64,000 nucleotides of DNA from Phoronis australis (GCA_002633005.1 NMRA01000224.1:459642-523641), one strand, 5' to 3'; shown: positions 11,431 to 61,240, numbered from the stretch's first letter. Translations and numbers: made by a program. Notes: generated from the sequence alone by a model not told the origin.

Positions 11431-11502
11431 TCATGCGTGCCTGTTAAGCTTCCCCTTGACAGCTGGCGACGTTCTGTTTGCACACTGGAACTCAAGATAG
11501 TG
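11431..11502 (-). CDS. RTK candidate terminal coding exon (HYLEFQCANRTSPAVKGKLNRHA*)
   Basis: Strong acceptor (tactttctattgcag) in phase 0, matching the 21169 donor. The junction TNQ|HYLEF parallels FGFR1 SNQ|EYLDL. Confidence 0.55.
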   Translation of the reverse strand, partial: HYLEFQCANRTSPAVKGKLNRHA

Positions 11503-11998
11503 CTGCAATAGAAAGTATGTAGAGTTAGTTAAGGTAATTGATCAGGGCCTACATGTGTAGCGAAATGAGGGACGATTTCTCTCACATCTGGCGAAGTATT
11601 TCATCACACTAAACTTCTCACAAAAGTTAGGATATCAATTTTTGAATGTTAAATGTTTGTTATTTTTGTTCATTATTATAGTCGCAAGACTTATTTTTCC
11701 TTTTTGATTCAATCATGCGACTTTCCATCATAAGTCCCAGGGATAGATGTAAAATTTCAAGATGTAATTTTGGGCTGTCATATACCATTCCCAGATCACT
11801 GGAAAATTCTTCCACCATCTTAAATATTTAATTAGACATAGTAAACAAACCACTTCATGTGCGTTTCCAACGTAAATGGACGGGAGAGTGAGAGCTGTTC
11901 ACACCAAGAGTTTTCAAAAGTTGAATGGCTACACAGCATTTTCACAAGCTTATTTTTCTTCTGGAGAAGTACGTTCGATCGATTTGGAGCGCAATTTA

Positions 11999-12088
11999 CA
12001 TGGGTGGCGCACCATGTGATGTGGGCGGCGCACCACAGAGAGCTAGTGGGCTATAGCCCGACTTATTTCAGTGTTGCGCCGCCCATGA
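11999..12088. repeat. Short MITE-like element (CATGGGCGGCGCA...TGCGCCGCCCATG family)
   Basis: Inverted ends and a gggctatagccc core; related copy at 45840-45988. Confidence 0.5.
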
Positions 12089-12442
12089 TTTAAAACAGAC
12101 AAAGAACTTAAGTCACCCCGGCGTCGGCTGACCAGCGAAGTCTAGATCTGGTGATAAAGAGTTCCCACTTTCGATTATAACGAACCGTAAACCTTTGACA
12201 TTTTCATGATTCATGTGATCAAACAAAGAGTATTTGGAACGAAAAGTGGCACAGATATTCGAAATGGAAAGAAAAGTGTGTCAAGCGGCTCGAGTCACTT
12301 TAGCTTAGGTTTGGTTCCCTGCTATCTTCGATAACATGTGTTACATTCGAGTATACTTATTTCATTTAAAGAATACAGTAAACCTCGGTAAAGTGGAACA
12401 GTTGACCTAGCATTAATTTCTTAATAAAGGCTTACGTGTTCA

Positions 12443-12595
12443 AGGTCGGATCCAGGATTTTGAGTTGGGGGGAAGGGCAGAGTATTAGCCAGGATTTTGC
12501 ACGTCAGACATTTGCACCCCCGAACTGCCAAATGGAATCTGGCAAAATTTTAGGGTGGCATGGCCCCCTTGCCCCCCCCCCTTAAATCCGCAACG
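12443..12595 (+). repeat. Short dispersed repeat (GGCGGATCCAGGATTTT...AAATCCGCC, Harbinger-MITE-like)
   Basis: Homologous to about 14151-14296 and to about 26953-27108 (inverted). Confidence 0.65.
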
Positions 12596-14074
12596 GGTTT
12601 CTTAATTAGGATCTTTGCTCAACTCTGAGAAAATTCGAGGAACAATTGACAAAAATCTCCATTTTTACCTTGTTTTATGTCGGAGTCCGTCACATGGCTA
12701 TTTTCTCTTAAAGAATCGTCAAACATTTATGGCTTTTAATAATTTGCTGACAGATCGCCTAAACCGTAACCGTCTTGGCTGACATTCACGATGCCATGGA
12801 CGATGACCCAGATGGGCTGATGAACTTTTGGTCTACATGAAAGTGCGGCTTCAATCGTGCAGGTGCTGTTCTGTTGCGGGAAAAACATTTTAGTTCGGCC
12901 TACAGTATTTTGCAGGGGGATCTTATTCCGGTGCTTTACAGGATTATATGACTTTTTGCAAGTTTATAAACACCCAGCATCCCAATTGGTAGGAATCTTC
13001 GCCGATTGTTTCTTAGTCATATATTTCAATTTATTTCCAACTTAAAACTAAATAAAAACAAACCCACCCATCTGAGCGGCATGTACCGTATACGCTGCCT
13101 ATGTAAGAACCCTCTCGGGTATGAGATACACGTGCGAAAGCCTTCAGGCATCGTTAAAGTCATATGATCTGTTTGTAGACGTTTTAAAAACATCGTGAAT
13201 CTGCATAAAAACCATTGAAACATACTCTCTGACACTTAATTAGAACTTTTCGTAAGTATGGGGTCGATCTGCTGCCTGTACATATTTTTTCTTTTATTTT
13301 ATATTTTCTTAAAATCTGCGTGATCAAAACAAACGAATGTTGCCCATAATGCTGTGCGGTTTGACCTTTCGGCAACTCGAGACAAATAGTCAGCTGTTTC
13401 CGGTACTGCTTCGAAGAAGAGAAGTTCGCCTTAACCAGGTAATTTATTCGTTTCTTAAACATTTTGATGACGATATTGCTCCCTGTATGAGCTGAACAGT
13501 CTAACTATTACTCTTAGAATTAGATGAAACCATTACCTGTGGGAAAATACGTACTGAATTCGATAGTAATCGTTGTGATCGAGTCGAGTCTGCAGTGGTA
13601 CCCTAGCCAGCCAGCTAGCGGTATCAAAGTACAGCTAGGTACCACTGTGTGTTTTTCTTCAATATAGAGCCCGAAATTCACACAGCCAGGGTAGTATATT
13701 TAGTGTACAGATTTGTATCAAGGCTAGCCCTAGTCCTAGGCCTATCAATGCTGTGACTTAAAAAGAGTGTAATGTTATTGTGGGTTGGATAGACCGTTTG
13801 TCACTCTATGGTCGTGAGTTGAATTTCCACCTGCTGGCAGTTTTCAGACTTTGGACTTGAATTGCAAAACTATTCGTGGTTTTTCATTGCCACAAGAAAA
13901 TCATCGTCTATCACCAGGGACTCTATACTCTACTTGTATATTGTACTAGCAGGGGCACATAGGAGGATTTAAGGGGGGGCTTGAACAAACCCTGTTTACC
14001 GTTTATGTTGTTTTTAGTAATAAGATCCACAAACCCAAAAATTCGACACCCCCGCATACCTACATCAGGCTGGG

Positions 14075-14296
14075 CTCGCGTATGTCGCAAAATTCTGGTT
14101 ATTCCTGTGCCCTGCCCCCCCCCCTAACTCAAAATACTGGATTCGCCCCTGGGGCAGATCCAGGATTTTGAGTTGGGGGAACATGGCAGAGTATTGGCCA
14201 GGATTTAGTTCACCAAACATTTGCACCCCCGAACTGCCAAATGGGAACTGTGAGAATTTTAGGGAGGCCATAGCCCCCCCTCAAAATCCACCACTG
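14075..14296. repeat. Head-to-head pair of the same short repeat (partial minus copy plus full plus copy)
   Basis: cccccctaactcaaaatactggattcgcccct|ggggcagatccaggattttgagttggggg forms an inverted junction. Confidence 0.6.
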
Positions 14297-21168: not shown

Positions 21169-21274
21169 CTGGTTGGTGTTGTTCTGAATCAGTTGATCGA
21201 CCTCTTCACACAGTTCCCCAAATGTAGGTCGGTCTTCGGGCTTTTCCCGCCAACATGACATCATGATTTTATAC
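21169..21274 (-). CDS. RTK kinase exon, subdomain XI (YKIMMSCWREKPEDRPTFGELCEEVDQLIQNNTNQ)
   Basis: CW...RPTF motif; AG and GTAAGT sites; 106 bp, phase 2 to 0. Confidence 0.93.
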
Positions 21275-21879: not shown

Positions 21880-22088
21880 ATGTCATCGTCACACTGATCC
21901 GGCTTGGGCATGCGATAACCAGACTTAAGGACATCTAGGAGGCTCTTGGCGGATATTGCAGGGTAGGGACTGCCACCTAGCGTGGCGATCTCCCACAATA
22001 CTACTCCATAACTCCATACGTCACTTTTGGACGTGTACTTTCCGTTCAACAAGGATTCAATGCTCATCCACTTGAAGGGAACGCGTTC
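21880..22088 (-). CDS. RTK kinase exon, subdomains VIII-X ([12 protein letters not shown]...[22 protein letters not shown]...)
   Basis: Canonical tyrosine-kinase motifs; CAG and GTAAGC sites; 209 bp, phase 0 to 2. Confidence 0.95.
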
Positions 22089-22267: not shown

Positions 22268-23922
22268 AGGAGAATGCCACCCGATTTAATTAGTCTTTTT
22301 TGCCGTCTTAATCGGTCTATATCCACATCGCCTTGAAGGCGGTTGACCTTACCTTGCCGAGAGCTGTCGCGTTAACCTGTGAGGAAGGTGAGAAACGACG
22401 CAGCGACGTCAGTGGTTCATTTGCAGAGTTAATGCCGCTATGTTGCGGTGCATCATTCCCGCTTGTTCGAACGACGCAGCTGCGAGGAAAGCGGGTATAT
22501 CGTTTTTTCGACTTCCTCGAGAGTCCAAAATGCTTAGGAAGTGGCTCGTGGTAGTGAAGAATTAAAAGTACGCTATAAATACAAGTATGAGGCCGTGAAA
22601 CATCTCCGTGTCTGTGGCCTGTAGTCGTCGATGCCGGGACAGTGCCTGACGAATGCCGGCTTACGTTCCGTTGTCTGAGCTTGTTCACGGCGCCTCTCTT
22701 GTATTTCTTCATCACTGTATTCCTGTTCGAGCTGATAGCCTGTGAAACTTAACGATCCACCTGCGAAGTCTTCGTTAGTATGAGCTCTCGTCTAAGTCGG
22801 GATTGCGAGTTGCCGTGTTGACGTTTATTACTGAGCGTTCTGTTTCAAAATGAATTATTCTCACCCTTATATCAATACTTATATAAAACTGAAAGAAAGT
22901 GTGTCTCATTAGATGCAATTTGGAATGCCTTTGGAATGTTCGTGAGTGCAAATGATTTGAGAAGACAGCAATGAATAAATCACTGCGTTAACGGCTTTAT
23001 TTGTAATAAAAGTAATTGACGGGACACCGAGGCCGTGTGAGCTCATGCTAATTAAGTGTTTGCTTACAGAAACTGTTGTGAAACAATTCGATTTCTATAC
23101 CACCGCCAGGTGTTAGGGAATCTATATTTACATTTACATTATTCAAATAATGATTGTCAATGTAAAACTTCTGCCGTGACGGTTCTGTGGCCAAAGCGGA
23201 ACCTGACTTCGCGGCCTCCGACAAGTAAGTAGATTTGCAGTTTCGTGGCTAATTCACCAAAATAATCACGTGCACTTTACTTCTTTGGCTCGCTAGTATT
23301 TCTTGACTGGAAGTTTAGTTTCCAACTATGGATTGTTTATGTTCGTGATGTCTGATCGGCTTCCGAGCCACTGACCGGGATAACGAGTGGCCCCGCCGGC
23401 CGCGATCGGGCTCCGAGCCACTGGCCAGGATAACAAACGTTTTGTGTGTTTAGAACTCAAAAAATAACAAGTCTAAACACACAGATCTAGGTTCTCCTGT
23501 CTGCAACTCACGAAAAAATACTTAGAATTTATCTCCGAACAGACCCCAAACTCCTTCTACGACGGACCTTATTAGCCTCAGTGCCGAACGTTGTAGGCTA
23601 CGGTGTGTGCAAACGCCAATAAATCCGTAACAGCGAAATTAAACAACACGTTTATATAAGAGCTCGGTGTATTTTTACGGGTTTTACATCGAAGTTTGAT
23701 GATTTATTGGTGTTAAACGATGAATTCAAGCAATAAGCTGACACCAGTAATCCGTGTTGTGAACTACTGAACAGACTGCGTGTGAAACCAATTACGTCAT
23801 TGGATAATTTCAACACCTCCGTCTGCCGTCATGTGTCAACGCAACCGTACGTGCCCTTATGGAATAGAACTACTCGATCTAAATTGATACAAATTAGGTT
23901 GTTTTTTGGGTGACATGCTCCT
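22268..23922 (+). mobile_element. Non-autonomous Kolobok-type DNA transposon with THAP remnant
   Basis: TTAA TSD on both sides; TIRs AGGAGAATGCCACCC / GGGTGACATGCTCCT; frameshifted THAP (MPLCCGAS...ISFFRLPRESKMLRKWL...HLRVCG). Confidence 0.85.
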
Positions 23923-25631: not shown

Positions 25632-25754
25632 CTGAGACCGTTTTTTATAGTATCCACTTTCGTAAGCGTCTCGCGAGAGTCCAAAATCGCATAATTTCGC
25701 AACCATGTTGTCACATATGAGGATGTTGCGAGCGGCTAAGTCTCTGTGAAGGCA
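25632..25754 (-). CDS. RTK kinase exon, catalytic and activation loops (CLHRDLAARNILICDNMVAKLCDFGLSRDAYESGYYKKRSQ)
   Basis: HRDLAARN, DFG and activation-loop YY; 123 bp, phase 0 to 0; canonical splice sites. Confidence 0.96.
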
Positions 25755-25771
25755 CTGGAATTGGAAAAAAA

Positions 25772-26728: not shown

Positions 26729-26910
26729 TTTCATGCTCTCCAAATGTCCCATCCCTTTGGCTATTTGCCAAGTAAATGACATTAGATCTTTGTTATCCAT
26801 TAACATGGGGTAGGAATGGTCGCTTCGTCCCGCTATCAGATCTTTGTTTCTTAAATAATTGAGAAGGTTGCCATGCTTTGCATACTCGAGCACCATCATA
26901 AAACAACCAC
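26729..26910 (-). CDS. RTK kinase exon, subdomains V-VIa (GCFMMVLEYAKHGNLLNYLR...DLMSFTWQIAKGMGHLESMK)
   Basis: EYAKHGNL and QIAKGM motifs; 182 bp, phase 1 to 0. Confidence 0.95.
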
Positions 26911-27108: not shown

Positions 27109-27119
27109 GCTTGGAAAAG

Positions 27120-43639: not shown

Positions 43640-43747
43640 CGTTTGTACATGCTCCAAGTAGAGTTATGATATTTGGATGACGCCCTACGTATATAAGTTG
43701 TTCCATTTCAAGCTTGAGCGATAGCAATTCCTCTTTTGTGCCATTTT
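43640..43747 (-). CDS. RTK kinase exon, alpha-C and subdomain IV (ENGTKEELLSLKLEMEQLIYVGRHPNIITLLGACTNG)
   Basis: Not in the ORF track; found by manual translation. Sites ttttttcag and gtatag; 108 bp, phase 1 to 1. Confidence 0.93.
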
Positions 43748-44825: not shown

Positions 44826-45066
44826 CTCGAACAGTCTTTACAGCCACTTTCACTGGCTCTGAAGTATCACGTGACTGAGCCCATCCTTCGTACACCAACC
44901 CGAAGGCACCTTCTCCTATACGTTGTCCAACTTTTAACGACTCCCGCGGTAGCTCCCAATTGACTGCGCTGTGATGGTATTCCATATCGGACACACATAA
45001 TTCAATGTCGTTGCCTGGACTTTCACAAAAGATACCATTGACCGTCAAAAGGCGCTGACTGAAACC
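44826..45066 (-). CDS. RTK juxtamembrane and kinase subdomains I-II exon (WELPRESLKVGQRIGEGAFGLVYEG...VAVKTVR)
   Basis: GEGAFG loop and VAVK lysine; 241 bp, phase 0 to 1. Confidence 0.93.
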
Positions 45067-45839: not shown

Positions 45840-45988
45840 CATGGGCGGCGCACCATAGGAGCCTGGGGTAGGGCTATAGCCCCCCACATTTTCAGGGCTA
45901 AGCCGCCCTTGGTCTATAGGCGGTGCAACACAGGAGGGCTGGGGTGGGGAGTTTAGCCCCCACTTTTTCAGTGCTGCGCCACCCATGA
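45840..45988. repeat. MITE-like element (CATGGGCGGCGCA...TGCGCCACCCATG)
   Basis: Inverted ends with an internally duplicated unit; related to 11999-12088. Confidence 0.55.
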
Positions 45989-47640
45989 TTGTGCGCCGAA
46001 CAAGAGTGTGGAGTGTCAGTGTGGAACATGAGATTCAGTTTGGCGTAAGCCACACTTTGATCGGCACATTTCAAAGAATCGTGTTTCGACCACACACATA
46101 AGCGGCGTTACAATGAAGGACTCACCACCAAGTAAGTGCATTTGCAAATTTTGTAAATAAAGAACAAACTGCTTCCATTCTAGGGCGAGTGATGCCGGCC
46201 GAGATCGAGTGCTACTACAAGTAGGCTTATGCATATTGTGTTTAGACTGTGCTCATTCCATCACGGCAATAGTGAATACGAGTAACCCAGGTTGGCTGTG
46301 GCCTTTGTCAGTAATTATTAAGTGTCTATTTTGTGAGTAGTGACCACCACTTGGTAGAGTTGGTTGTGGCTCACATATGTCATTTCTCGTGCAAGTGGGT
46401 CGAGTTCATACGGTCCGAAACTCGACGAAAGTTCGCTAAATGGGAAATCAAATTCATTGTCTGATTCTTCAAGTACTTGAGTATAAGTGCCCGTATCCAC
46501 TCTCCCCCCCCTGTCTGCATAATAATTGTCCAGTTCTCGCCTAATATTGTCACTGTCTTCTGACCTGCAGTGTTCCGACATTGCAAATGATTGTCAAGCG
46601 GCCAACAGTCTTCCACTCATTGCATCATTTGGCGGGAAACTTAGAAATAAGTAATTTTTCTTCAAAATTAAAAAAGTTGCCATTATTTGGCATAAAAAGT
46701 GCCTATTTAGCAAGATTTTATGGTATTCGATTCATATTTAGCTAACTGAAACCTGAAAAAGTAAGAAATGCTTGGTGGGAACTCTTTAATAACCAATTTG
46801 TGACATAGGGAGTATGAGTTTTTCATTGATTCCTGCGTTTAACTTTCAAGATTGACGCCAACGATGCATTAAGTGGTGACAAGACGAGGATTGGTGGAAA
46901 TCATCAAACGGGGGTTTAGTATCCTTTTAAATCACTTCAATACTCACCTCTTAAAAAGAGCTGAAGTTCCACCACAGGGCTTTTCATCACTTGGTGATAT
47001 AAACCAAAAACAAGGGAGGGGAATTCTAGTTCTACTAAGCAAATCAAATTCCCTTGATGCGTTTAGAACACCGCAGACCGTCTTACCGATTATTTTTCGC
47101 CTCCTTTTTCCTTCCTTTAGCAACAGCGAATCAAATTGTCTGCCATCTTCTACCCTTTGTCTTTGACCCAAATGCCAGCCAACGAACTCAGTGAATGCTT
47201 CGGTTCACGAGTTCACGGGTAGATTAAAAGATATAAATGGCGGAGTGACAAGCGAAAAGTAATAAGTCGAATCTTCCAGTGAATAATTTCTTTCGAATTT
47301 GATTTGGTTATCACTAATAGACTGAACAAGAATTTTCCTTCCATTCTTTTGGTTTATGTCCTTCGGTGAAAAGCCCTGTTTAAGCTCTATTTAAGAGCTC
47401 AGTATTGGCTGTAATAAATATGAAGTTTGCCAATAATTTAGGTGTGAAAAAGTCTACGGCGTGCTCGAAGAAAAATTCAAGGGTGTGCACTTTGTGAATG
47501 TAATTTCATTCATTTACACTGATAGAAATTGTAGTAAAACACTCACAGTTTTCAATAAGGTATCAAATTGTGAACTTGAGGTTTCAAATAAATTAGTTGT
47601 GCTTTATACTTTTTCAAGTCAGTACAAATTCTCAAATTGA

Positions 47641-47815
47641 GGAGACAGTGTTGCGCAGTAGTTTGAACTCCGACTCCGTTTGGGAGACAAAGGTTGGAAT
47701 CCTGGCTTTACTGGCTGACAATCGAGCATTGCACAACGGTGTCTCCTACTCCTTTGATCCCAGTCTTACTAATTAATGTGTGCAAATGACACAATGCGTA
47801 AGCGATTTTTGGGGC
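47641..47815 (+). mobile_element. Possible decayed tRNA-derived SINE
   Basis: A-box-like ttgcgcagtag and B-box-like ggttggaatcc at tRNA-like spacing. Confidence 0.35.
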
Positions 47816-48040
47816 TGTGTTCATATATTTATATCAAAATTGTCGTCACTGAAAGTCACATAGGCCACTTAAGCCTTAATGTTTCATTATAGAAGTGAAT
47901 GAGGTAAAAACATCAAGAAAATCAATTATTTGTATTGCATAACTAAGGTTTCTTACGGCTGGTACCTCGCACAACACTCGCTTTATTGAATACATTCAAT
48001 ACCTTGCACGATTACATAGCGCGACAAAAAAGCGACAAAC

Positions 48041-48201
48041 CTCATAGAAAACGTTATCTCGCTGAATCCTCTTGCTCTTGGTTTTTGCGTCCTCAAAAAG
48101 CCGTTGGCAGACATGTCTGCTTTTCATCCAGTACATGAAGACGACAAGGGCACACAGAAAAATAACACCAAACACTAGCAGACCGCCAATCATAGCACCG
48201 A
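48041..48201 (-). CDS. RTK transmembrane exon (VGAMIGGLLVFGVIFLCALVVFMYWMKSR...NVFYE)
   Basis: Hydrophobic stretch followed by basic residues; 161 bp, phase 1 to 0, compatible with both neighbours. Confidence 0.9.
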
Positions 48202-48410
48202 CTAAAATAAATTGAAACATTTTACATGAAAGAAAAAGCGTCGATAGAACGAAGGGCCATTCAGTGTTAGTTTTTGTCCTCTAAAGTACTATATTTTCCC
48301 TCATGGCGTGTTCGAAGGTTATGATAAATTTGTAAGTTAGTTTGGTCGTTAATAATTAGTCCATGTTTAGTAAAATACCGTGAGTTAGCATGTAGCAGAT
48401 CTAGTAATAC

Positions 48411-48608
48411 CTAGCCGAACGTTGCTGTGTGGAGTCGTGACAACACATGTGAGCTCGCTCATGTTCCGTGACCACTGCTCAAGCTCTTCGCCTCCTAGAC
48501 ACCGACACTGAGTGACGTTTGTGCTTGCCATGTTGCTAATGGCGTTCTCGGGGCATCGGGAGCAAGGCTCATTTCCGGCAATGTCTTTGAAGTGATTGAC
48601 AGGGCATT
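48411..48608 (-). CDS. RTK ectodomain exon, Eph-receptor-like Cys-rich repeat (ECPVNHFKDIAGNEPCSRCPENA...QCRC)
   Basis: CPxxxFKxxxGxxxCxxCP pattern; 198 bp, phase 1 to 1. Confidence 0.88.
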
Positions 48609-49673
48609 CTAAAAGACAGACAACGGACACAGAAGTTGTGCTATATATAGAAGAGTGCAGACAACTAGCTGTCTATAAACGCTAGCGCATCTAGGCGCGT
48701 ATTCAGGGGTTTAACATGTCGATCGTGTAAAAAGTGGCAGTAAGCCATCTACACGGGCAGATTTGCTCGTGCAAAGCAACGTCATGACGTTGTTGTCCGT
48801 CGTTTTAATTCAAGTTGGGTAAGATAAAACACTTGGTTTTCCCCTGACGGCTATACAGATTCGATAAGCTGAGACTAACACGACAAGACACGAAACATAA
48901 TGATCCAAGGTTTAATCAACAACAACCTGACAGTTTGTCTCGAGGCTACCAGTCATATTATTCTGAGTAAAGAACAAAATGATGTCGATTTTATAAGCGA
49001 CCTATATCAAGCAAAAGTTGGGGTTTTTTTTGACAGAAAGACACGATGGCCGCGACAATGGTGGCAGTAAAGATACAAAAAGTTTCCTGCACCTTCCATA
49101 AACGTGGGGTACGGCACAGACAAGGCACAATAGCATGTGATATTATGGCGAGAAAGTAATTTCATTAGGGAGAGTCTACACATTACTTCGTCCAAAATTT
49201 GCAATTTTCCCCCTTCCCTCCTCTGTCATCGCCCATCAGTTGTTAACTCCCCCGTCCAGCCTAGCTGTGATTACGTCAGCACAATCACCCCCTGTTAAAG
49301 AAGTGATGGAGTTGGTCTGTCGTTTGTCCCATGTGTACGTATTTATAATGGCAGGTCCCGATTTTGGTGTTAGTCAATTCCCCTAGAAAGTGAACCAGAT
49401 TCTTAACGATATGTACTGTGACGGAGACATTCTGACAAACCACATGACGACGTAAACATGAGTCGCTCTCCCCTCCCCCTTGAAAAGTCATCTTTTACGA
49501 CCCTCCTCCCCCATCTAGTGACCACGTAATATATGAATGTACCCTAGTCACTTCTTTTAGCTTGCATTTAGCGATTACAATATAAAGGATACTGTATAGG
49601 CCAATGGTTACAATATGTCTGGGCTATTCTGTCATTCCTGCTAAAACACAGAATGATAAAATGAAGTTCTTAC

Positions 49674-49756
49674 CGGTGCAAAAGTCTTTGTCGTATTGCA
49701 ACAAACAACCGCACGGTGTCGCTTCGGAGTTATTGGCCACTGTTTTTCTAGTAAAT
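49674..49756 (-). CDS. Probable ectodomain exon (FTRKTVANNSEATPCGCLLQYDKDFCT)
   Basis: gttgcag and gtaaga sites; ends in phase 1 to give CT-E-CPVN. The upstream join is unresolved. Confidence 0.6.
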
Positions 49757-50545
49757 CTGCAACGACATTTCGAATTACTTAATAAGTTCTATTTTGATTC
49801 TATTACAAACTGTCATCCTCAGTCTGCAACGGTAATAAATAATCGGGCACTGAAATTAGTTCTAAACTCATCTAAACTATAGGCACCAGTTTAAACGAAA
49901 GCTATTGATTAGTGCGCTGCTGCCTTGGGTAACATTCATGTGAGACTTTCACAGCAGTGTCTTTATGATTCATTTGAAGGTGTTCGGAAATATTAGATCG
50001 AGAATTACCGTCAAAATACTCACCATGCAACTGAGGAAAACTTTTCGTTTGTTGCTGACCGAAAATAAAGCGCATATTTAGGTCGCATCTGGATGTTGTG
50101 CACGTGCACCACTTAATGAGCAAAACCACTTACACTCAAGTGAAGTGTTTTGTCAGTTTTCAAACAGTAGATATTGGCAGGTTTGCCGCTGAATAATAAC
50201 TACAGTACAAGCCAAAACGATTTCAGACCCAATGAACCGTAATTCACCGTCATGATGATATAAGACGGAAGCCGAATTTATCGTCAGAGTAGTCTCCCCT
50301 GATGACTAACAATGAAGGGGAATTAACAGGGAAGTTAATAAGGCGGCTAAGCCATTCTGTTATTAGAATTTTGTCACCCACTGCTCGATAGTTACTAGTG
50401 ATGTTTACCGTTAACAGAAATTATCGTCATGACGGAAAACGGTATTTTGTCTGATTACTTTGACTTGTACTGTAAATACGGCAAATCACATAGGCAATCT
50501 ACAATACAAAATTTGCAACACGTTGCACATAGGCGAAAGACGGGC

Positions 50546-50675
50546 GGGTGGCAGACAGGTGGAGCTGTTGATAGTTTTACCCACCCAGGTAAGCACGTGC
50601 ATACACCTCTTACGTTCACGGCACCTGGTGGGCACTTGGTCAGGCAATCACTGTTAAGGTTGTTGGCTGGGCAAC
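50546..50675 (-). CDS. Cys-rich ectodomain exon (GCPANNLNSDCLTKCPPGAVNVRGVCTCLPGWVKLSTAPPVCH); donor position uncertain
   Basis: ttccag acceptor in phase 1 matches the LRR-CT exon donor; CPxxxxxxxGxCxCxxGW pattern. No clean GT at the expected end. Confidence 0.7.
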
Positions 50676-50976
50676 CTGGAACGATAACATCAAAACATGG
50701 AGACGGCACTACGCTATCCTTCTTCTTCCTTTATTTGTACACATGGCCATCGGCCTCAAGTACAACAAACAAGCAAACAAGATCTTAGGAGTGTTATGCA
50801 CACTAGTCGGTAATACACAAGCTGTTCCGTTTTTAGATGCGTAGGATACATATTCCACAATTGAAAAATCTGGATTACATAATACTCTGTGAAATTTAAA
50901 CAAAGAGAGACTTGTGCAGAGGCTCTCACTTATAAACTTAACTCTGATTTTGGAAAAAGCGTCGCAATTAACTAAC

Positions 50977-52333
50977 AACAAGAGCAACGCAGAGCGTTGA
51001 AATGCGCCCACGAATACAAGGCAAATGGTGTGCTTTTAGGGTTATTTATTTGTATCATAAAAATGGCCACTAGATGGCGCAAAAACGTGCAATCCATCAA
51101 AAAACTGGAACATGCCATATTTCATAACAATGTGTCAAAGAACTTCAGAAAAAGAAAGGAAAATAGAATAAAATGAAATTCCCACTTAAGTGGGGCACAG
51201 TGTCCGTTGAATCCGCCTGAAACTGAAATTGTCACTAGGGGGCACACCAGCTAGCAGTCAGACCCGTCCGAAAGTTGTCGTCGTTCATTGCCTACATCAT
51301 ATGAATACACTTTCCAAATTTAGTAAATATCCTGCGAACGGTTTAGGAGATACAGGCATAGGCGCAAAAAACAAAACTGCGACTAGGAGGCGCATCAGGA
51401 GTTGAAGTCGTCGGAAAATCATCATCAGCCGTCCACTTTACAGTATGAACGCACATGTTAATCTTCATAACCATTCTTCGAGCGGTTTGGTTGACAGAGG
51501 GGTGGACGCAAAAAACAGACTCGAAAACAGTAAAAATGGCCACTAGGTGGCGCAAACTACGTCGCATCCATCCGAAAACGGGAGAACAACGTCATCTCAC
51601 TAGTACGTGCCTACATATTGAATTTTATGAAAAACCTTTGAGGACTTTTGAAGATACAGATGTAAACGTAACAAACTAAAATTGCCACTAGGGGGCATAC
51701 CGGTAGTCGGATCCGTCCGAAAGTCGTCGTCATCTGTTGTCAACGTCATATAAATACACTTCCTAAATTTAGTAATGATCCCTCAAACGGTTTAGGAGAT
51801 AGAGCCATAAGCGCAAAAAAACAAAACTGCCACTAGGAGGCGCCACAGAAGTGCAAATCGTCGGAAAATCACCGGCAGCCGTCCACTTCATAGTAAAAGC
51901 ATACATGCTAATTTTCACAACCATCCTCTAAGCGGTTTGGTTGATAGAGGGGTGGACGCAAAAAACAGGCCCGAAAACAGTAAAAATGGCCACTAGGTGG
52001 CGCAAACTACGTTGAACCCATCCGAAAGCGGCAGGACAGCGTCATCTCACAAATAGGTGCCTATATACCACATTTTATGAAAGTTTGTTAAAAACATTTG
52101 AAGATACAGAGGTAAACGTAAAAAATAAAATTGCCGCTAGAGGACACACCGGTAGTCGGATCCCTTCGAAAGTTCGCTCATGCCGTTCCATCCACGGAAG
52201 GAACACGTGTGCAAAATTTCATGAACACATGTCAAGGCGTTTTGGAGATAGAGCAGCGGACGCCGGACACAGGACGGGCGGACGGAGATGACGGCATAAT
52301 CCGTCCACATATAAATATGTGGGCGCATAAAAA
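50977..52333 (-). mobile_element. Helentron-associated (HINE/DINE-1-like) element with central tandem repeats
   Basis: Subterminal IRs atgcgcccac / gtgggcgcat; terminal hairpin caacgc-aga-gcgttg; partial IR ccacatat / atatgtgg; (GGAC)-like microsatellite; A-rich ends; about 150-bp units arranged as 450-bp trimers. Confidence 0.75.
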
Positions 52334-54330
52334 GTGATATTCATCCTCGACACAATTCATTGACCAGTTTCTACTGCCAGTCTGTGGTTTGCTCATCGAA
52401 AACGTGTAAAACTTTGCACGAACAACCTTGGAAGATTTTCAATTTCTAAACAGTTTTCGTGTATTTAAACTTAAACTAGGCTATCGACAACGATACAACC
52501 AGAAAAAAAAAGCTACTGCTTAGGGCCTCACACAACACCATAGGGCACATGAACATTGATTGACGGTGGGCGACCAGAAGTGGGTGCTTAGTCGAAAATC
52601 GTGAAGACCGGGAGGAATAGTCTGAAAATTGCGGGAAATTCTAACGACGTCCAGGGTTCCCAGCTTCAGGGGCCCAGAAAACCCTGGCGTACATTCCGTA
52701 AACACAACAACCTCGCAAAAACGCAAGCTCGTGCAAGAGACTAGGAGCTATTGCAACGCAAATGATCAGGCTCACTCGTGGCCTTCGCGAGATTTATATA
52801 TCTACGGAACTTAATCCAGCGGTCGGTTTCACGAAAGTTTTTCTGTTTACCTTAACCCAAAATCGGTACATGTCTAGTAAACGAGATTTAAATTGTACTT
52901 ATGGCTCTAAAATACTGTTAATAGACCCTATTCCGAATTCGTTTCAAGACCATGATTGTACTTGAAACCGGATTTCGCACATCGCCTGGCTTTGTTCGAC
53001 GTAGCCAAAGTTGATGAATTCGCAACAGGCGGAGTGAGCGCAGCCAGTATGCTCAAATTTTGACCGATGACCGAAACTCGACGTTTTGCTCGCAAAACGG
53101 TATTTTCTAAATTTCTGTCCTCGATCTTAGCGCGAAATGTGGCCTTAAATTTGAGAATTTTTTAGTTCTAAGCCTACTGAGGCTTAATATTTAAAGTCAC
53201 TTTTCACAAAACAGGCCCTTGAATATAACTTCTAAAATAGCAAGACCCGTGCTAATTGTGCATCAATAAATAATCATAATGAAATTAATATAAAAGGAAA
53301 TGCTGTCTCTAGGGGGCGAAACTAGCAATTTAACTGTGGGGATGCGTCAAACTTAAATGTAATTTGCCTCAGCCAACATGAAGGAGTGGAAATAGGCAAC
53401 TTCGATTTTAAAGACAAATCAACTGTAACCTTAAGCTGATATAAAAGTGGAGTTTCGCAATTTTATCAGACACACACTGTTAACTCAAGCAATTGAGCAC
53501 CTCAAAGGCATTTTCAGTATTAAAACGCGCATTGCAAATTAATTTCATAGGCCACTGAAAGCATTGTTTTTAAGTGTAGTGACATTCTATAACGCAACAT
53601 TAAGTAGCTCTCAACGTCCAGCTTCCAAGCTCTGAACTAAATCTTAACTCAAACTCGAAACTGCGGTTGTTTTTCTGTCAATGCTGACTCGACAAAAACC
53701 CACACCGAACATTTTTTTGTAAAACTTTCAAACATGGAAACTTTTTTGAAAGTTCCCCCAACTTCATCTTCCTTTGCCCAATATTTTCTTTCTTTTCCAA
53801 CTGAATCAGCAATTATTGGGGAGGTGGCGTCCTGGATACCCTCTAGAAGCTACTAACCTGGTTGTATCACTCCGGTTTCTGAAGAAAAGAATCTGGTTGA
53901 ACATCGATGAGCTAGCGAATGCATTGACGAAGACATATACAGTAAGTGCAATAGTGCTTTTTTCAACAAAGCCTGTCACCAAATCTAGCACACATGTATA
54001 AACGAAGTCAGACTGCGCGAATTTTTTTCTGTAGACTCCATTTGTTGCAACGATCAGTTTTGTTTGAGAGGATAACAAGCTCTGCTTTAGCCTAAAGAAA
54101 GATAACAACTACAAGTTGACATCAATCTTTGAAGCAAATTATTTTAGTAAGTTGAAAACTAAGAAAAAGTAGTGAGATAGGAAGTGTGACTAGTAACATG
54201 TTGATCAAGCTGACACCTAAGGGGTAAAATCAACGACACATGGATTTGGTGGTGCCAACACTGACGAACAACGTGTTGGACGACATGTGCAATACAAGAT
54301 ACGAACTATCTTATAATAGTCAAAGTATAC

Positions 54331-54494
54331 CACATCTGAGCAAAGACACGTTGACCAAGTTCATCTTAACGTTCATCAGAACTGGCGGGGAATGACACGT
54401 GGGCACCAAGTACGGCTTTGAAGAATATCTTTGATAGAGTGTCAGCAGCCATTCCAATTCGCAATTGCAATGGAATGGATTATTGCCGAGATAC
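54331..54494 (-). CDS. LRR C-terminal cap exon (YLGNNPFHCNCELEWLL...PTCHSPPVLMNVKMNLVNVSLLRC)
   Basis: Not in the ORF track. Classic NPFxCxC..W...CxxP...C motif; strong acceptor; 164 bp, phase 2 to 1. Confidence 0.9.
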
Positions 54495-55259
54495 CTGTAA
54501 AAGAAAATAACGCCATCAACGAGTTATCGCCAAATTTTGTACTGTTTGTGAGCAAAAACAATCACTTTATATGTTTGTTCATATTCGTAATCTAAAATCC
54601 GTTTTATCAAGATCGCATGCCCGTCGGACATTAGATAATCGCAACCACCACCAGAAGTGGGAGTGTAGTTCTTTTGGAAATTACCTTCCTGTAGGGTTTC
54701 TGGGACGTTCAGTCTTCGGAACTTTACGAACACGGCGGTAAGGAATTACACCAAAAAGCGCCCTCTGACAGAAAATTATGTAGGAAAAGACGTTCTTTCG
54801 TAGGAAATTGTAATTGGAAAAGGCACTATTCCGCCAGACATTACATGTATTTGTTGAAGGACACCTCTCCGCAAGGAGTTATATCGGAAATAACCTTTTC
54901 GTAGGGAGTCCTGGCCATGAAGAAAGCCCTCCCGTCTGAGCGGTACGTCCTACCACGTAACTCGCGTAGTTATGAAATGCCATAATAATATTTTAGGTCA
55001 GTACAAACTGGTAATGAACCGAATTCACTCTGGTGCCACCGTAAGCGCGCACAAACAGGCCACTACCAGCAAAATCTGCCGGCTGTGACGTCATGTGATT
55101 GGCATGATTGGCAGTGTGCTGTCTTGAGAGACAATGGATATGCGCCCTCCGTTAGTCATTTGTTGGACTGCAGCGTTGTCTGTGAATAAAACGTCCGGTT
55201 CGATCTAGAGAAGCAGATTCTGTTGCAATTGACACAGGTGTTCCGATCAGTCAGAACAC

Positions 55260-58200
55260 TAGTCGGTGGGCCAGATCTCATAGCGTTCATCCTTGTGAGT
55301 ACTTTGGGGGGCAACCTAGTTTTTTCTATGTGGCTAGATAATATACCTATAAATCAAATTCCAAAAAGTTCCCACGTCTACACTTGCACATTTTTTTTAA
55401 AAAAGGTGTTTTTGTTGCACAAAACATTATGCACATTCCTGCCACTTGGAGGCGCTTTTCTATTGAATTGACCAATCAGAGAGCCAGATTGTATTGTTGT
55501 GCTTAGTTACTTCAATATGGCTGCTCCCATGAAGTGTGATGCCTGTATAATTCAAGGTTTATCAAACAGCACAAAATTGTGATGCCAGAGCCTAAAGAAG
55601 CATAGGAAAGCTTCCTGACGAAAGCTGTTGGACTGTGGAACTCTGTAGATCAATAGATAAAAAAGAAGAAGAGGTGCCACAAACGTTTGTTCTGGAAACA
55701 GCTGCATGTTCTGGTATAGCCTATACAGTATACTGCTGAGTGCTGTCCAAGTGTCAGACCAAAAAATTGAAAGGACTTAGACCAGCATAGCAACGTTTCA
55801 AGGCACCAGCAGTAGTACTAAAGCTGAAGTTGCTGAAAGTGATACAGATGTTACCAAAGATTTCCCAAGAAAATCAATTATACTTCCAAAATCTGAAACA
55901 CCCAATAAACCTGAACAAGATAGGAACATTCTGAAACATGAGTGCATCATTTGTTAGCAAGAAAAGTATATTATGGACCATATTTCAAGAAAGAGAAAGA
56001 AGTATAGCTTTGAAAAACAGGTACGTGTTTTTGAAAGGTACATCTTGGTGTTCTCCATGTGTGTTTCAGTATTATCACCAGTTGTTCAGCCCCTTGGCTG
56101 CCTAGGCCTTAGACAATACCACCGACCCAGTAGAGACGGTGATCATACCATAGGTACTCCATATGCCGAATGCTTTACGGCAAATTATGTTCCAATAAGT
56201 TTAGAAGTACCGCGTAGAGAGATGCCTCTGAGGAGGTCGTTAATGTTTTCATTTGTTCCCAGTTTAAACAAATACTCCTGCAATCCTGTTTTTCGAACAC
56301 TCCATTGTTCAGTTGCCACATCAACACTGCTTGCACTAAGGGATAATCATATGGCGTTACACTGTGGGTGTGATTTTAAAGCACTTTAAGTCAAAAATTT
56401 TTGAGAAGTTTAAATGGAGTAGATGGTTGCAAACAACATGCCCAAGTGTCCGTCATCCCCTGCCGTAGTCCTGGGATAGGGGGAACCTCTTGTCAATTTT
56501 TGTAAACATTAATTACTTTGGTAGCTGCAATGATAATTAAGTTAAAAGTGCCTAAGTGGCCAAGGTCCTCGTCATAATTTGAGGACAGTGGAAGCCACTG
56601 TCCATTTCGTCAAACGTCGATTACCTTAAGTGTAAATCGATTGACTATGGTTTGAGCATCTGATTTAAAAAAATTAAATTTCAATCACTGCACTGGTATA
56701 TCAGCTGATTTATTTTCAGTTGCATCAACTAATCTAGTTATTAGACGATCAACATTTTTAGGCGACAGATCCGACGGCATGTAAATTTGTTAGGCTGGTG
56801 GTGGATCAGTTCCTGGTAAGTCCGTTTGAAAAAGTTGCTTGCCAACTCACTCATAGTTGAATGTTAAATTAGTGTTAACAGTTCGTTTTTTTTTCAGTTG
56901 GACTTGTATCGCAAGGAACAGCTCAGTCCAGAGCCCTGAATAAGCAAATGAAATTCAAAGATAAAGACCTTGTGTCTTAGAAGCCAAGTACCACAGATCG
57001 TCATGCTATAAAAAATAGAAAGACAACGATTGTGAAGAGTGATGAATCCACAGTTTTCAGAGAGGTTTTCCTACAGTTTTGTTTGGAGTTCATTGAATCA
57101 AAGCTTCTAACACATGGAGATGTCATTTGCCTTTCAAAACTAAAGCAAGACTTTGAAGCTGTTCTTCAGAAAGATGGTGTGCATGAAGCTATTTGGACTG
57201 GAAATCTTAAGAAATATTGTTGAAGCTACTCACTGTTGTAGTTTGTGCCCGACTAAGCGATACGAAAGTGAATTGAGGCTAGTGTTCAATAATTCACTTG
57301 CTGACTCTAATTAACACAGCCTATTATAACATATTTTTAATCAAACGTTTGCCCAAATCCTGCCCGCCTCCAAACAGGGACTTAGTGTTTGACACTTCAT
57401 TGCCTGCGGGCCAATCACCAGTGTGCAGTGCTGTACCCTCTCTAATCGACCATAGTTGGCTCCTTGGCGGTGGAGCTTTGCAGTTTAAATGTATGGCAAT
57501 GCCCGCATCTCCATTAACAGTACTAAACGATGAACGCTGCAAGTGCAGAAAGAACATGTGTGCTGGGAAACTGAGTTTGTGCTGCAATGCTGGGTCAAAC
57601 TGTACAGAAATGTGCAGCAGTGACAACTGTAGTAACATCAGCAACACTGACTGCATAGCATTGGATACCTCTTTGACAAGTCAACCCTAAATAGACCTCC
57701 AACCCCGTTATTTCGTTTTTTTTGTATTAAAAAATTAATTTTATTTGTTGATTCAGTCATAGAAAGTACATACTTTGATCATTGTCATGTATTTGCCTCA
57801 TACTGCTTGATAAACGCTGTCAGAATAATCTATTATTTTCATACAGTCTGTGCACATTCACAGAGATCATTCAACTATAATGTATTTGTACTATAACGTA
57901 TTTCTGGTGTATTATGCAAACAAGCTGTATTTTACACCATTAATCAATGTTTTAGTCATTGAGGCACAAATTTTGCCCAGTCTCAAGTGTTTTGTGTTAT
58001 TTTTGTTGCCAGACAATGCCATAATAACTTCCTAGTAACATTCATACTTAGATTGCATTTTTGCCACTAGGTGTCTCTTTACATTTTTTTAAATTTCACT
58101 ATTTACAATTAATCTACAATAGTCAAACATGCAATGTGAGTGCAATATTGTTCAATACAATGGCACTGATGGGACCATATTACTTGCTTTACAAAAAGTC

Positions 58201-58424
58201 ACCAAAACTTGTTTTTACAAATATAAGTTTACTAAGCTCTTTGGTGATTATCAGGTAACTTCAAACTCTAATTTCTCAAAAATGTGCAACTTTATATGTG
58301 GGAACTTTTTATATTTCGAAAACACTCTAATAAATGAATTAAAAAACACCAAATTAAAATTGCCCCCTAAAGTGCTCACAAAAACCATTTTCTAGAGGCC
58401 CTACAAATTCTGGCCCACCGACTA
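55260..58424 (+). mobile_element. Non-autonomous Academ-derived element, copy B (both ends intact)
   Basis: TIRs TAGTCGGTGGGCCAGA / TCTGGCCCACCGACTA; CAC 3-bp TSD; residual Cys8 finger (RCKCRKNMC...CCNAGSNCTEMC). Confidence 0.88.
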
Positions 58425-58489
58425 CACCTGTGTTCTTTAAGTAGTGCCTGTTTATCTTCTCGTCTTTGTTCACTGGTTTTAATGTACTA

Positions 58490-58960
58490 CTGACAGTCGA
58501 CTTCCACCTGCTGTGATTGGAGAACACAGCTTCTCAGTCTGCGACAGTGATGTTTCCCGTCTTCAGATTGCGCTTGCAAACATCTTTGCAACGAAGCACG
58601 GGTCTTCCTGCAGGTCTGGTTCCGGTGGCGAGTTCACCACAAAGTATATCCATCGTTCATGTGCCTTACGTGGCCAAGCCAACAAAAGCGCCTCTAGGTA
58701 AGCATTGCGTACGTACTAAGCAGTGCCGCCTGAGTTTGAATTTTGTTGTAAGAGACATGGTCCCTCCATTTGATGCAGAGTACTGTTCTCAGGCAGCACA
58801 AAGAGTTGAGTCTGCGCTCTTGACGGGGGTGTATAGGGATCATGATTCGCTGCTGTATAAGAGAATGCTAAGGACGCAAGCTTGGTAGACGTTCATCCTG
58901 TTGTTGATTTGTCAGCATACAATTTTCCTAGACCTTTTCAAAATAGAGCACGGCTGCTTG
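58490..58960 (-). mobile_element. RTE-clade LINE fragment
   Basis: Minus strand: YQACVLSILLYSSES, QERRLN, IKWRDHVS, WLGHVRHMNDG and GELATGTRPAGRPVLRCKDVCKR. Confidence 0.85.
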
Positions 58961-59749
58961 AAAACACAAAAATGTAACCACTTACTTACACAATTGGGAG
59001 AATATTGAGGTGGCCATTGAACTTTCGCACCCCTTCGCTGTAAATTTAACTAACCGCAATTACGTAAATCCGACCGGCGTAATCCGTACTTAAATTATTC
59101 ACAAACCATTTTAATGAATTATATCTCTGTAAAATTTAAGATAGGAAGCTTTAAGATTCGACTGGGTTTACGACCTTTGATATAACAGAACGCTAGAAGC
59201 CAAAAGTACTTCTGTGAAATACAATGTCTTAATCATTGCCATTAAATGGGAAGGTATCCAGTTAGAGTTATTTTTTGACCAAAGCGCGATTTTCTGTTCC
59301 ACATAATTTTTCAAGTTACTGCTTATAAATGTGCCACACCGGAAGTGACATTCGCTTCCCAAATCATTCCTGCCACACTTGTTCATTTGTGAAATGATTC
59401 ACTTTGGACATACGTTGAGTCTATACTATTTTTCCAAAAGTGCCATGGATATTTGCCTTCGACCTGTATTCTCACACACTCCTAGATTGGCTAAGACCTC
59501 AGGTGAATGGGAGTCTTTGTTTGGTTTGCACTGAACAGAAAATGGCTGGGAGTCATGTACCAAAAACACAAATCACGTACATTATGAATATCCGTTGTTG
59601 CTTGCCATGAACGCCAGGGTAACTTAATTATCTTGAAAGTATAGCTGGATAAAGAATTCAAGTTAAAAAAATCACGATTTTACCAAAAATGGCAGTAAAA
59701 ACGGTTGCCTTCCCATCCACGCTTTTGCGGTGGGATAAGTTCTCACAGC

Positions 59750-59990
59750 AAATAATAATAATAACAACAACAACAATAATAATAATAATAACAAGAAGAA
59801 AAAATTAGTAATGATAATTATTGTTAAAATAATAATAACAATAATAACAATAATAATAATAATAATAATAACGATAATAGTAATAGTTATTGCAGTAGTA
59901 AAAAAGTAAAAGTAATAGTAATAGTAATAGTAATAATAGTAATAGTAATAGTAATAATGATAGTAATAGCAATAGTAATACTAATAATAA
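59750..59990. repeat. (AAT)n / (AATAGT)n simple repeat
   Basis: Direct reading. Confidence 0.95.
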
Positions 59991-60261
59991 TTGACACAAG
60001 AAACGGGCAAAGTATTATCTTTGTGAGCTAGATATAGTAAAGTTTAAAGTTAATGAACAAGTGGTCGGTAAATAATTGTCGAAAAGGTCTCGTGACAAAT
60101 CACTCGGTGCAAACAAAAGTTCACTAAAGTACATGTACGCTCGAGCAGAATTTGTTTGCTCAGCCCACAAGTGCATTTAACAACTGAATGAATCCAATCA
60201 ATGCTCATCGAAACTTCAGATAAAAGCGAGGAAGCGTGCAGATTCTAATTATTTGACTTAC

Positions 60262-60348
60262 ATAGGCATGGAATCTCCTTGAAACAATGTGGTGATGACT
60301 TCCTTTAAACTGTGGTCGATCGTAGAGATTGTATTGTTTTCTAAATGA
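60262..60348 (-). CDS. LRR exon (IHLENNTISTIDHSLKEVITTLFQGDSMPM)
   Basis: tttttcag and gtaagt sites; phase 2 to 2; LxxNxIxxI core; splices in frame to both neighbours. Confidence 0.8.
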
Positions 60349-60355
60349 CTGAAAA

Positions 60356-60484
60356 ACAACACAGAGCGCAAACGTTACATGGTAACTGGGAATGCACGTT
60401 ACTATGGGTCAACATTTGAACAACACAGAGCGCAAACGTTACATGGTAACTGGGAATGCACGTTACTATGGGTCAACATTTGAA
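60356..60484. repeat. Tandem duplication, 2 x 64 bp
   Basis: acaacacagagcgcaaacg...caacatttga occurs twice. Confidence 0.9.
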
Positions 60485-60507
60485 TGTAAAACTTGTAGTA
60501 TTATCAG

Positions 60508-60510
60508 CAT

Positions 60511-60551
<41 letters not shown>
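60508..60551. repeat. (CAT)n(CAG)n microsatellite
   Basis: Direct reading. Confidence 0.9.
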
Positions 60552-60552
<1 letters not shown>

Positions 60553-61171
60553 TGATAATAGTAATTATACTAAATTTAAAATTGTTCTCTGAAAGCGGGG
60601 TCCATAACAATCGAGTAAACACAAACTGGTTTAACGTTTTACAAAGTTCAATTTGAGGATTCAATTCATTTTATAATTTTCCAGCTCTGAAGTGAAAGCA
60701 ATGTTTACAGTAAATGGTAATATTTTCCTCATACTTTGCGCTTGTAAACGACAACCTCGTTTAGGCACCGTGCTCGAAACAAGGTAAGGTGACAGAAATA
60801 CAAATGATTGGGCTGTAACGCGAAACTCTTTGTACATTGCATTTGAGCAAAGCAAATCACAGGCTCATACTGCCTCTTTGGCTACTCTGTCGACGAGGGA
60901 AGTCCCAGGTTATGTCACGTACATTACAAATAACACCCTCTGAACCAAAGCTGGTTCAAAAAGAAGTACATTTTTGTCAATAATTCTTTCTTTGAGAGTT
61001 TTAAGCATTTGGGTCACAGTCGGGTGCTTTTGCATGCACGCAAGTGGAGAGCATGCCTCCTCTATGTATATATTTCATGCTAATGAAAATATTGTATTCA
61101 AAAGATCATTAGATAATCATGCCATAGAATGTTATGTTTATTTAAAATATCATTAGGTTTTGAACACTTAC

Positions 61172-61240
61172 ATGACCATTTTAGTGAAGCCAGGCATTTC
61201 AATATCTGGAATGGTTCTTAGGAAGTTGTTGTTGAGCATT
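61172..61240 (-). CDS. LRR exon (MLNNNFLRTIPDIEMPGFTKMV)
   Basis: gttgcag and gtaagt sites; 69 bp, phase 2 to 2; LxxNxLxxIP consensus. Confidence 0.82.

What the first reader, a model, noticed from the sequence alone, without database searches (positions are those of the whole stretch)
11431..61240. Receptor tyrosine kinase with an LRR and Eph-like Cys-rich ectodomain on an FGFR/RET-type kinase
Seen: at least 14 candidate minus-strand exons give LRR-LRR-LRRCT, Cys-rich repeats, one TM helix and a kinase with intact catalytic motifs (GEGAFG, VAVK, alpha-C Glu, HRDLAARN, DFG). All joins are phase-compatible except the one after the 50675 exon. Four exons are absent from the ORF track. Established: FGFRs have Ig ectodomains, RET has cadherin domains, Trk has LRR plus Ig with a different kinase subfamily, and Eph has the Cys-rich repeat without LRRs. 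Inference: this is a domain-shuffled orphan receptor class with an unknown ligand, possibly developmental or pattern-recognition.
Basis: partly seen in the sequence, partly recalled or inferred. Interest (0 to 1): 0.8.

Follow-up and report, generated by a model that had tools for sequence, protein, structure and literature searches.

The report
Orthologue of Aplysia's LRR tyrosine kinase
This is a real, spliced and expressed animal gene predicted to encode a cell-surface receptor kinase of a type already described in the sea slug Aplysia (LRRTK), so it is not a new receptor class, although its relatives show that the family is much older and more widespread than that first description suggested.

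Summary
The gene is real. RNA reads join the LRR exons to the Cys-rich, transmembrane and kinase exons in one unbroken splice chain on the minus strand. The 5' end lies outside what was found; the last kinase joins and the terminal exon rest on phase and homology only. It is not a new class: the same layout (LRRs, GCC2_GCC3/Eph-like region, TM, FGFR-like kinase) was published as Aplysia ApLRRTK (PMC4200351). The kinase falls in one clade with ApLRRTK (100/99); placement inside FGFR or RET is rejected. What is added: 12 of 17 relatives carry all three domains, in a brachiopod, a nemertean, gastropods, a millipede, a hemichordate and amphioxus, against a 2016 statement that orthologues share no ectodomain (PMC5176290). 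Most members have a YxxxYY activation loop, and a second donor (47087) suggests a second isoform. The ligand remains unidentified. Three look-ups of this scan's earlier notes returned nothing on this family.

The parts
61172..61240 (-). exon 1 of the model: LRR piece; most 5' exon found (upstream exons not located)
   Evidence: AG/GT, open frame; donor joined to 60348 in 18 reads
60262..60348 (-). exon 2: LRR piece
   Evidence: both joins in RNA reads, 18 and 24 reads
54331..54494 (-). exon 3: LRR C-terminal cap (NPxxCxC, four Cys)
   Evidence: joins in 24 and 30 reads; best PDB matches are LRRCT caps of LRFN5, E 1.4e-4
50585..50675 (-). exon 4: Cys-rich
   Evidence: joins in 30 and 18 reads; 3 of its 5 Cys invariant in 13 relatives
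   Evidence: found; joins in 18 and 17 reads plus contigs
48411..48608 (-). exon 6: Ephrin_rec_like (PF07699) repeat and stalk
   Evidence: Pfam E 1.2e-4, 22.2 bits, just under the 23.1 cut-off for this exon alone; joins in 17 and 18 reads
48041..48201 (-). exon 7: single transmembrane helix and start of juxtamembrane segment
   Evidence: only hydrophobic peak in the model, Kyte-Doolittle 2.86; joins in 18 and 14 reads
47087..47146 (-). alternative donor at 47087 spliced to exon 8; 5' extent of this exon unknown (47146 marks only an upstream out-of-frame ATG)
   Evidence: 9 reads in two runs; in-frame stop two codons upstream, no stop-free cassette possible
44826..45066 (-). exon 8: juxtamembrane, glycine loop, VAVK lysine
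   Evidence: PF07714 E 2e-5; joins in 14 and 17 reads plus a contig
43640..43747 (-). exon 9: alpha-C Glu
   Evidence: 5' join in 17 reads; 3' loose end of 12 reads equals the start of exon 10
26729..26910 (-). exon 10: hinge and short kinase insert
   Evidence: PF07714 E 2.6e-9; 5' join from loose end
25632..25754 (-). exon 11: HRDLAARN, DFG, YxxxYY activation loop; an N gap (25772-26199) lies 17 bases upstream
   Evidence: PF07714 E 2.8e-13; phase fit; joins not tested by RNA
21880..22088 (-). exon 12: kinase subdomains VIII-X
   Evidence: PF07714 E 8e-25; phase fit; joins not tested by RNA
21169..21274 (-). exon 13: kinase subdomain XI
   Evidence: PF07714 E 4.4e-5; phase fit; joins not tested by RNA
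11431..11502 (-). likely terminal coding exon: 23 codons beginning with the family's tail tyrosine motif, then stop
   Evidence: best acceptor score (4.1) among 15 motif hits at 1165 AG sites; rival at 20463 has a weak acceptor and lies in an inverted-repeat element; not tested by RNA

Best explanation
The window holds most of a spliced, expressed gene whose predicted product is a single-pass receptor tyrosine kinase orthologous to Aplysia ApLRRTK, and it likely works as a ligand-activated growth receptor that signals through MAPK. Shown here: one minus-strand splice chain from LRR exons into the kinase; intact catalytic motifs; a kinase clade of its own beside FGFR and RET. Inferred: a secreted or surface protein ligand would bind the LRR horseshoe, the Eph-like Cys-rich repeats would act as a rigid stalk and clustering surface, two receptors would trans-phosphorylate the three activation-loop tyrosines (YxxxYY), and phosphotyrosines in the juxtamembrane segment and tail would recruit PTB and SH2 adaptors to Ras-MAPK-CREB. 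By analogy with Aplysia the likely role is neurite growth and synapse remodelling. Odds: orthology about 0.95; active receptor kinase about 0.9; MAPK output about 0.75; a neural role in this animal about 0.5.
For: RNA joins; open 607-codon model. Top architecture-bearing hits to one kinase exon are LRR and/or PF07699 kinases of Tubulanus, Lingula and Haliotis. The window's ectodomain alone matched 17 of the 238 proteins then held, all 17 being the family rows. Kinase tree: 18-row clade with ApLRRTK at 100/99, same result in two other row sets. P0137 matches the paper's residue numbering at 4 of 4 positions. Catalytic Gly, Lys, Glu, Asp, Asp invariant in 13 of 13 relatives. In Aplysia: kinase activity in HEK cells, kinase-, MAPK- and CREB-dependent neurite outgrowth, presynaptic need in long-term facilitation (PMC4200351).
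Against: No functional or tissue data exist for this animal; run libraries carry no tissue label. The gene's 5' exons were not found, so the signal peptide and most LRRs are assumed. Three kinase joins and the terminal exon lack RNA support. Short reads show overlapping joins, not one whole molecule. The juxtamembrane NxxY is present in only 5 of 21 family rows and Aplysia has YxxxHY rather than YxxxYY, so signalling details may differ. The family labels in the tree were chosen from the search results before the tree was built; Trk, Eph, ROR and vertebrate Tie were not in the tree.
Confidence: 0.8

Rival explanations
1. A new, lineage-specific receptor class made by recent exon shuffling of LRR and Eph-like modules onto an FGFR/RET kinase.
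For: No vertebrate or insect protein with LRR+PF07699+kinase among the 120 best hits; PMC5176290 suggested a recent ectodomain-kinase association.
Against: Same layout published for ApLRRTK. 12 of 17 relatives carry all three domains, across protostomes and deuterostomes. Ectodomain and kinase pick the same relatives independently.
Confidence: 0.03
2. A true but divergent FGF receptor that swapped Ig domains for LRRs and still responds to FGF, as the Aplysia paper proposes.
For: PMC4200351 places ApLRRTK in the FGFR family and reports that it enhances FGF effects on synapses (data in supplements I could not read). FGFR kinases are the best PDB matches to the Lingula orthologue. LRRTK+FGFR as sister groups is not rejected (p-AU 0.374).
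Against: Window protein inside FGFR rejected (p-AU 0.001). LRRTK+RET is not rejected either (0.164). No Ig domain in any of 17 family rows scanned. Ptychodera has a separate Ig-type FGFR in the FGFR clade, and so does Aplysia per PMC5176290. YxxxYY in 13 of 21 family rows and 0 of 10 FGFRs.
Confidence: 0.15
3. A pattern-recognition receptor: LRRs bind microbial products and the kinase triggers an immune response.
For: LRR plus LRRCT ectodomains are used by Toll-like receptors (recalled). The ligand is unknown.
Against: The family looks conserved and low-copy, with a tree that roughly follows the animal groups, unlike expanded immune LRR families (recalled). Best LRRCT matches are neural adhesion proteins (weak evidence). 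The one functional study is neuronal.
Confidence: 0.08
4. The LRR exons and kinase exons are two neighbouring genes or a pseudogene.
For: An alternative exon at 47087 also feeds the kinase exons; introns are long, hold transposon remains and two N gaps.
Against: Direct TM-exon to kinase-exon join in 14 reads and a contig; eight consecutive joins; no stop in 607 codons; colinear full-length relatives.
Confidence: 0.02

Closest known systems
Aplysia ApLRRTK
   Same: LRRs, GCC2_GCC3 region (recalled as the older name of PF07699; Pfam hit at 864-894), one TM helix, FGFR/RET-type kinase; same kinase clade 100/99; 35.5% identity over 532 aligned columns.
   Different: Aplysia protein has a long extra N-terminal stretch and YxxxHY in the activation loop; the window's protein has YxxxYY, a likely very short tail, and an unknown 5' end.
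FGFR family
   Same: Kinase of the same broad group (best PDB matches of the Lingula orthologue); tyrosine motif just after the kinase; similar kinase intron positions (recalled).
   Different: No Ig domains; separate clade; extra activation-loop tyrosine.
RET family
   Same: Activation loop start resembles RET.
   Different: No cadherin-like domains; inclusion in RET rejected, p-AU 2e-5.
Trk receptors
   Same: LRR with Cys caps outside; three activation-loop tyrosines in the same spacing (PMC2772990 passage).
   Different: Trk has Ig domains after the LRRs; kinase matches FGFR first. Trk was not in my tree.
Eph receptors / SCUBE proteins
   Same: Share the PF07699 Cys-rich repeat (the PDB matches are weak, E 0.33 and above).
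   Different: No ephrin-binding, FN3, SAM, CUB or EGF arrays; different kinase.
Amphioxus LRR-F5/8C-Sushi kinases (P0282 named Branchiostoma; P0334, P0368 unnamed)
   Same: LRR ectodomain on a tyrosine kinase.
   Different: Own kinase clade, apart from LRRTK; no PF07699.

Membership tests
LRRTK (ApLRRTK type) | Signal peptide and 8-9 LRRs at the N-terminus | tested here: inconclusive
   Only two LRR pieces and the LRRCT are in the window; no upstream join found up to 63549 and no further LRR exon by profile search.
LRRTK (ApLRRTK type) | GCC2_GCC3 / Ephrin_rec_like region between LRRs and membrane | tested here: met
   PF07699 E 1.2e-4 on one exon, just under cut-off; Cys pattern conserved with relatives.
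LRRTK (ApLRRTK type) | Single TM helix, no Ig domain | tested here: met
   One hydrophobic peak; no Ig hit on 13 exons; RNA joins leave no room for extra exons between LRRCT and TM.
LRRTK (ApLRRTK type) | Kinase domain groups with ApLRRTK | tested here: met
   100/99, 100/99 and 100/100 in three row sets.
LRRTK (ApLRRTK type) | Kinase activity, MAPK/CREB signalling, neuronal expression | not testable with these tools
   Catalytic residues intact; no assay or tissue data.
FGFR | Two or three extracellular Ig domains | tested here: not met
FGFR | Kinase within the FGFR clade | tested here: not met
   p-AU 0.001; sister-group relation neither shown nor rejected
RET | Cadherin-like ectodomain and kinase within RET clade | tested here: not met
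   p-AU 2.2e-5
Trk | LRR followed by Ig domains | tested here: not met
   no Ig hit; Cys-rich repeats follow the LRRCT directly
Trk | Kinase within Trk clade | not tested
   No Trk sequence was held for the tree; the 60 best PDB matches of the Lingula orthologue are FGFR, KIT, FLT3 and one entry named EGFR.

The most novel reading that the evidence does not exclude
LRRTK is neither an Aplysia oddity nor an FGFR variant but a separate receptor-kinase family dating from the last common ancestor of bilaterians, with a fixed LRR-LRRCT-Eph-like ectodomain and a Trk-like YxxxYY loop on an FGFR/RET-type kinase. It was kept in spiralians, a millipede, hemichordates and amphioxus, apparently lost in vertebrates and insects, and answers to an undiscovered, non-FGF neural growth factor.
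Probability: 0.5. Interest if true: 0.5.

Novelty: new member of a known kind. Interest (0 to 1): 0.27.

Why it matters
As a single gene it is one more orthologue. The useful part is the family picture: a receptor tied to synaptic growth in Aplysia turns out to be shared, ectodomain included, by protostomes and invertebrate deuterostomes. That corrects a published remark, argues against calling it an FGFR, and gives a set of aligned ectodomains with which the missing ligand can be sought in tractable animals such as amphioxus or hemichordates.

Tried and rejected
No genome held for the window, so the 5' exons could not be sought beyond 64000. A protein search with exon 8 alone found nothing at E 1e-3. 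The first read-laying at 90% likeness was swamped by repeats and listed no exon join. The run search listed no indexed RNA holder; the raw-read runs came by species label. The profile search of 1.84 billion representatives was dominated by long repeat proteins; of 14 rows followed up (13 from it, plus P0004), 13 entered the tree and only 2 (Lottia, Biomphalaria) joined the clade, so distribution is a lower bound. A short Priapulus fragment (P0004, 65% identity) was too short for the tree. AlphaFold of the Lingula orthologue (mean pLDDT 74, pTM 0.56) gave only FGFR/KIT kinase matches in the 50 rows shown; the single-sequence fold of its Cys-rich part was unusable (pLDDT 45.5). The Atlas search gave only weak structure matches, TM under 0.4. 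Exon candidates 59126, 54091 and 62890 from the splice-site scan had no RNA join. Terminal-exon candidate 20463 was rejected on acceptor quality and repeat context, without RNA proof. Paper searches: searches found no description of the wider family; some searches found the two Aplysia papers. D'Aniello 2008 on amphioxus kinases is not held and may describe the amphioxus member. The supplements of PMC4200351, which hold the FGF data, could not be read. Earlier scan notes: nothing relevant. No complex prediction was run, as no candidate ligand is in hand.

Full report
Setting. The window is animal DNA, 39% GC, with many transposon remains and two N gaps. No whole genome is held.

Observation. 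Thirteen minus-strand exons, 61240 to 21169, all AG/GT, join into 607 codons without a stop. In order they give two LRR pieces, an LRR C-terminal cap, Cys-rich repeats (PF07699 on exon 48608-48411, E 1.2e-4, just under the curated cut-off), one transmembrane helix, and a kinase with GEGAFG, VAVK, alpha-C Glu, HRDLAARN and DFG. Pfam gave no hit at E 1 on the six shortest or most divergent exons (both LRR pieces, LRRCT, two Cys-rich exons, alpha-C exon); the LRRCT exon does match solved LRRCT caps (E 1.4e-4). The phase break after exon 50675 vanishes with exon 49756-49674.

RNA test. Three stranded paired-end runs of one study and one contig set of another were laid on 43550-63549 at 99% likeness (about a fifth of each raw run was read). 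Nine joints were listed, all CT..AC on the plus strand and all from minus-strand RNA. Eight form the chain 61172>60348 (18 reads), 60262>54494 (24), 54331>50675 (30), 50585>49756 (18), 49674>48608 (17), 48411>48201 (18), 48041>45066 (14), 44826>43747 (17); five are also in contigs. A loose end in 12 reads at 43638 maps once in the window, at 26879-26908, the start of the next kinase exon. So LRR and kinase exons are spliced together. Four relatives of 957-977 aa have 319-376 residues before the LRRCT motif, where the model has 57. The terminal exon 11502-11431 is the best of 15 motif hits at 1165 AG sites; a rival at 20463 sits in an inverted-repeat element.

The ninth joint, 47087>45066 (9 reads, two runs), cannot be an in-frame cassette: a stop lies two codons upstream. 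Either it is an internal first exon, giving a 296-319 residue cytoplasmic kinase from the Met at 44985, or an extended exon 7 that stops 14 codons after 48041 and gives a kinase-less receptor or a decay substrate. No join into that exon was listed, and intronic depth is seen upstream of it in one run; the data do not decide.

Relatives. One kinase exon retrieved 244 proteins; ranks 2, 3 and 22 were Tubulanus, Lingula and Haliotis proteins with PF07699, the last two also with LRRs (rank 1 was a multi-kinase protein scored on several domains). [quoted passage not shown] Of these 17 rows, 12 have LRR, PF07699 and kinase hits together (Lingula, Lineus, Haliotis, Patella, Batillaria, Aplysia, Bradybaena, Lymnaea, the millipede Chamberlinius, Ptychodera, two Branchiostoma); three lack LRR hits, one (Saccoglossus) lacks the PF07699 hit, one has the kinase only; several are marked partial or start without a signal peptide. 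The window's ectodomain alone matched exactly these 17 among 238 proteins held, and its kinase ranked ten of them first.

Trees. On 66 kinase domains the window's protein and the 17 form one clade at 100/99, apart from FGFR (100/97) and RET (100/99). With 26 long-branch, partial or redundant rows dropped (40 rows) the result held; forcing it into FGFR (p-AU 0.001) or RET (2e-5) was rejected, while LRRTK as sister to FGFR (0.374) or to RET (0.164) was not. Adding 13 rows brought in Lottia and Biomphalaria and showed that a second LRR-bearing kinase group (LRR-F5/8C-Sushi, one row named Branchiostoma) is separate. Model LG+G4 without mixture; Trk, Eph, ROR and vertebrate Tie were not sampled.

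Literature. PMC4200351 (I read abstract, results, discussion and methods, parts 1-4 of 6; supplements unreadable) describes ApLRRTK: signal peptide, eight or nine LRRs, a GCC2_GCC3 region, TM S922-A944, kinase R945-T1393. P0137 has those four residues at those positions. The paper reports neuronal surface expression, kinase activity in HEK cells, kinase-, MAPK- and CREB-dependent neurite outgrowth, a presynaptic need in long-term facilitation, and enhancement of FGF effects, and files the protein under FGFR. PMC5176290 (passages only) finds it no closer to FGFR than to RET, notes kinase orthologues in molluscs and Branchiostoma, and says none shares its ectodomain. My trees agree with the first point; the Pfam scans contradict the last. 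I found no paper on the wider family in searches, nor in passages of PMC7535936; subscription papers, including the amphioxus kinome paper, were not seen.

Mechanism. Shown: receptor layout, splicing, intact catalytic residues invariant in 13 of 13 relatives. The activation loop has YxxxYY in 13 of 21 family rows, including this one, and in none of 10 FGFR, 6 RET and 9 other readable rows; Trk has three tyrosines in that spacing (PMC2772990 passage). A juxtamembrane NxxY occurs in 5 of 21 rows, this one included, and a tail tyrosine aligned with the FGFR1 YLDL motif in 11 of 14 family rows printed. Inferred from general RTK biology (recalled): ligand on the LRRs, dimerisation aided by the Cys-rich stalk, loop trans-phosphorylation, adaptor docking, Ras-MAPK. 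Inferred from Aplysia: a role in neurite and synapse growth. The ligand is untested; FGF is the published candidate, but the lack of Ig domains and the coexistence of a true FGFR in Ptychodera and Aplysia make a different ligand at least as likely.

Verdict. New member of a described kind, interest 0.27. The remaining value is the evidence that LRRTK is an ancient bilaterian family with a conserved ectodomain and no proven ligand.

Noticed in passing
window 47087 (minus strand): Alternative donor spliced to the first kinase exon in 9 reads against 14 for the normal join; would give either a cytoplasmic kinase-only isoform or a kinase-less receptor.
   Followed up: partly
window 63950-64000 (plus strand): An AG followed by an LRRCT-like stretch on the opposite strand at the window's edge; weak profile score (E 3.8), no Pfam hit. 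May be an exon of a neighbouring LRR gene or chance.
   Followed up: partly
window 61559-63549: Minus-strand read depth drops to about nil here although nearly all other bins, introns included, have some; could be a polymorphic insertion (a reverse-transcriptase-like remnant near 62300-62750, recalled likeness, no Pfam hit) or a transcript start near 61500.
   Followed up: no
window 34496-41522 and 35907-37904: A decayed large DNA-transposon-like element (DUF6589 hit) in the 16.7 kb intron, interrupted by a LINE (endonuclease hit) that spans an N gap; a 95% alike inverted copy of part of the LINE lies at 4026-4297, next to an RVT_1 frame.
   Followed up: partly
window 50970-52340: A highly transcribed repeat (450-base tandem unit) inside intron 3, read mostly from the minus strand at depth in the hundreds, with sharp read starts at 51472-51476.
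   Followed up: no
window 6838-7089 and 22303-22758: THAP-domain remnant, with a second partial copy in the intron between kinase exons 11 and 12.
   Followed up: partly
proteins P0282, P0334, P0368: A second LRR receptor-kinase group (LRR, F5/8 type C, Sushi; one with a C-terminal tectonin domain), one row named Branchiostoma, with RGYR in place of the twin loop tyrosines in the two rows read.
   Followed up: partly
proteins P0137, P0138, P0140, P0294, P0388, P0389: All six heterobranch gastropod rows have His in place of the second loop tyrosine, so the one studied member is atypical of its family.
   Followed up: no
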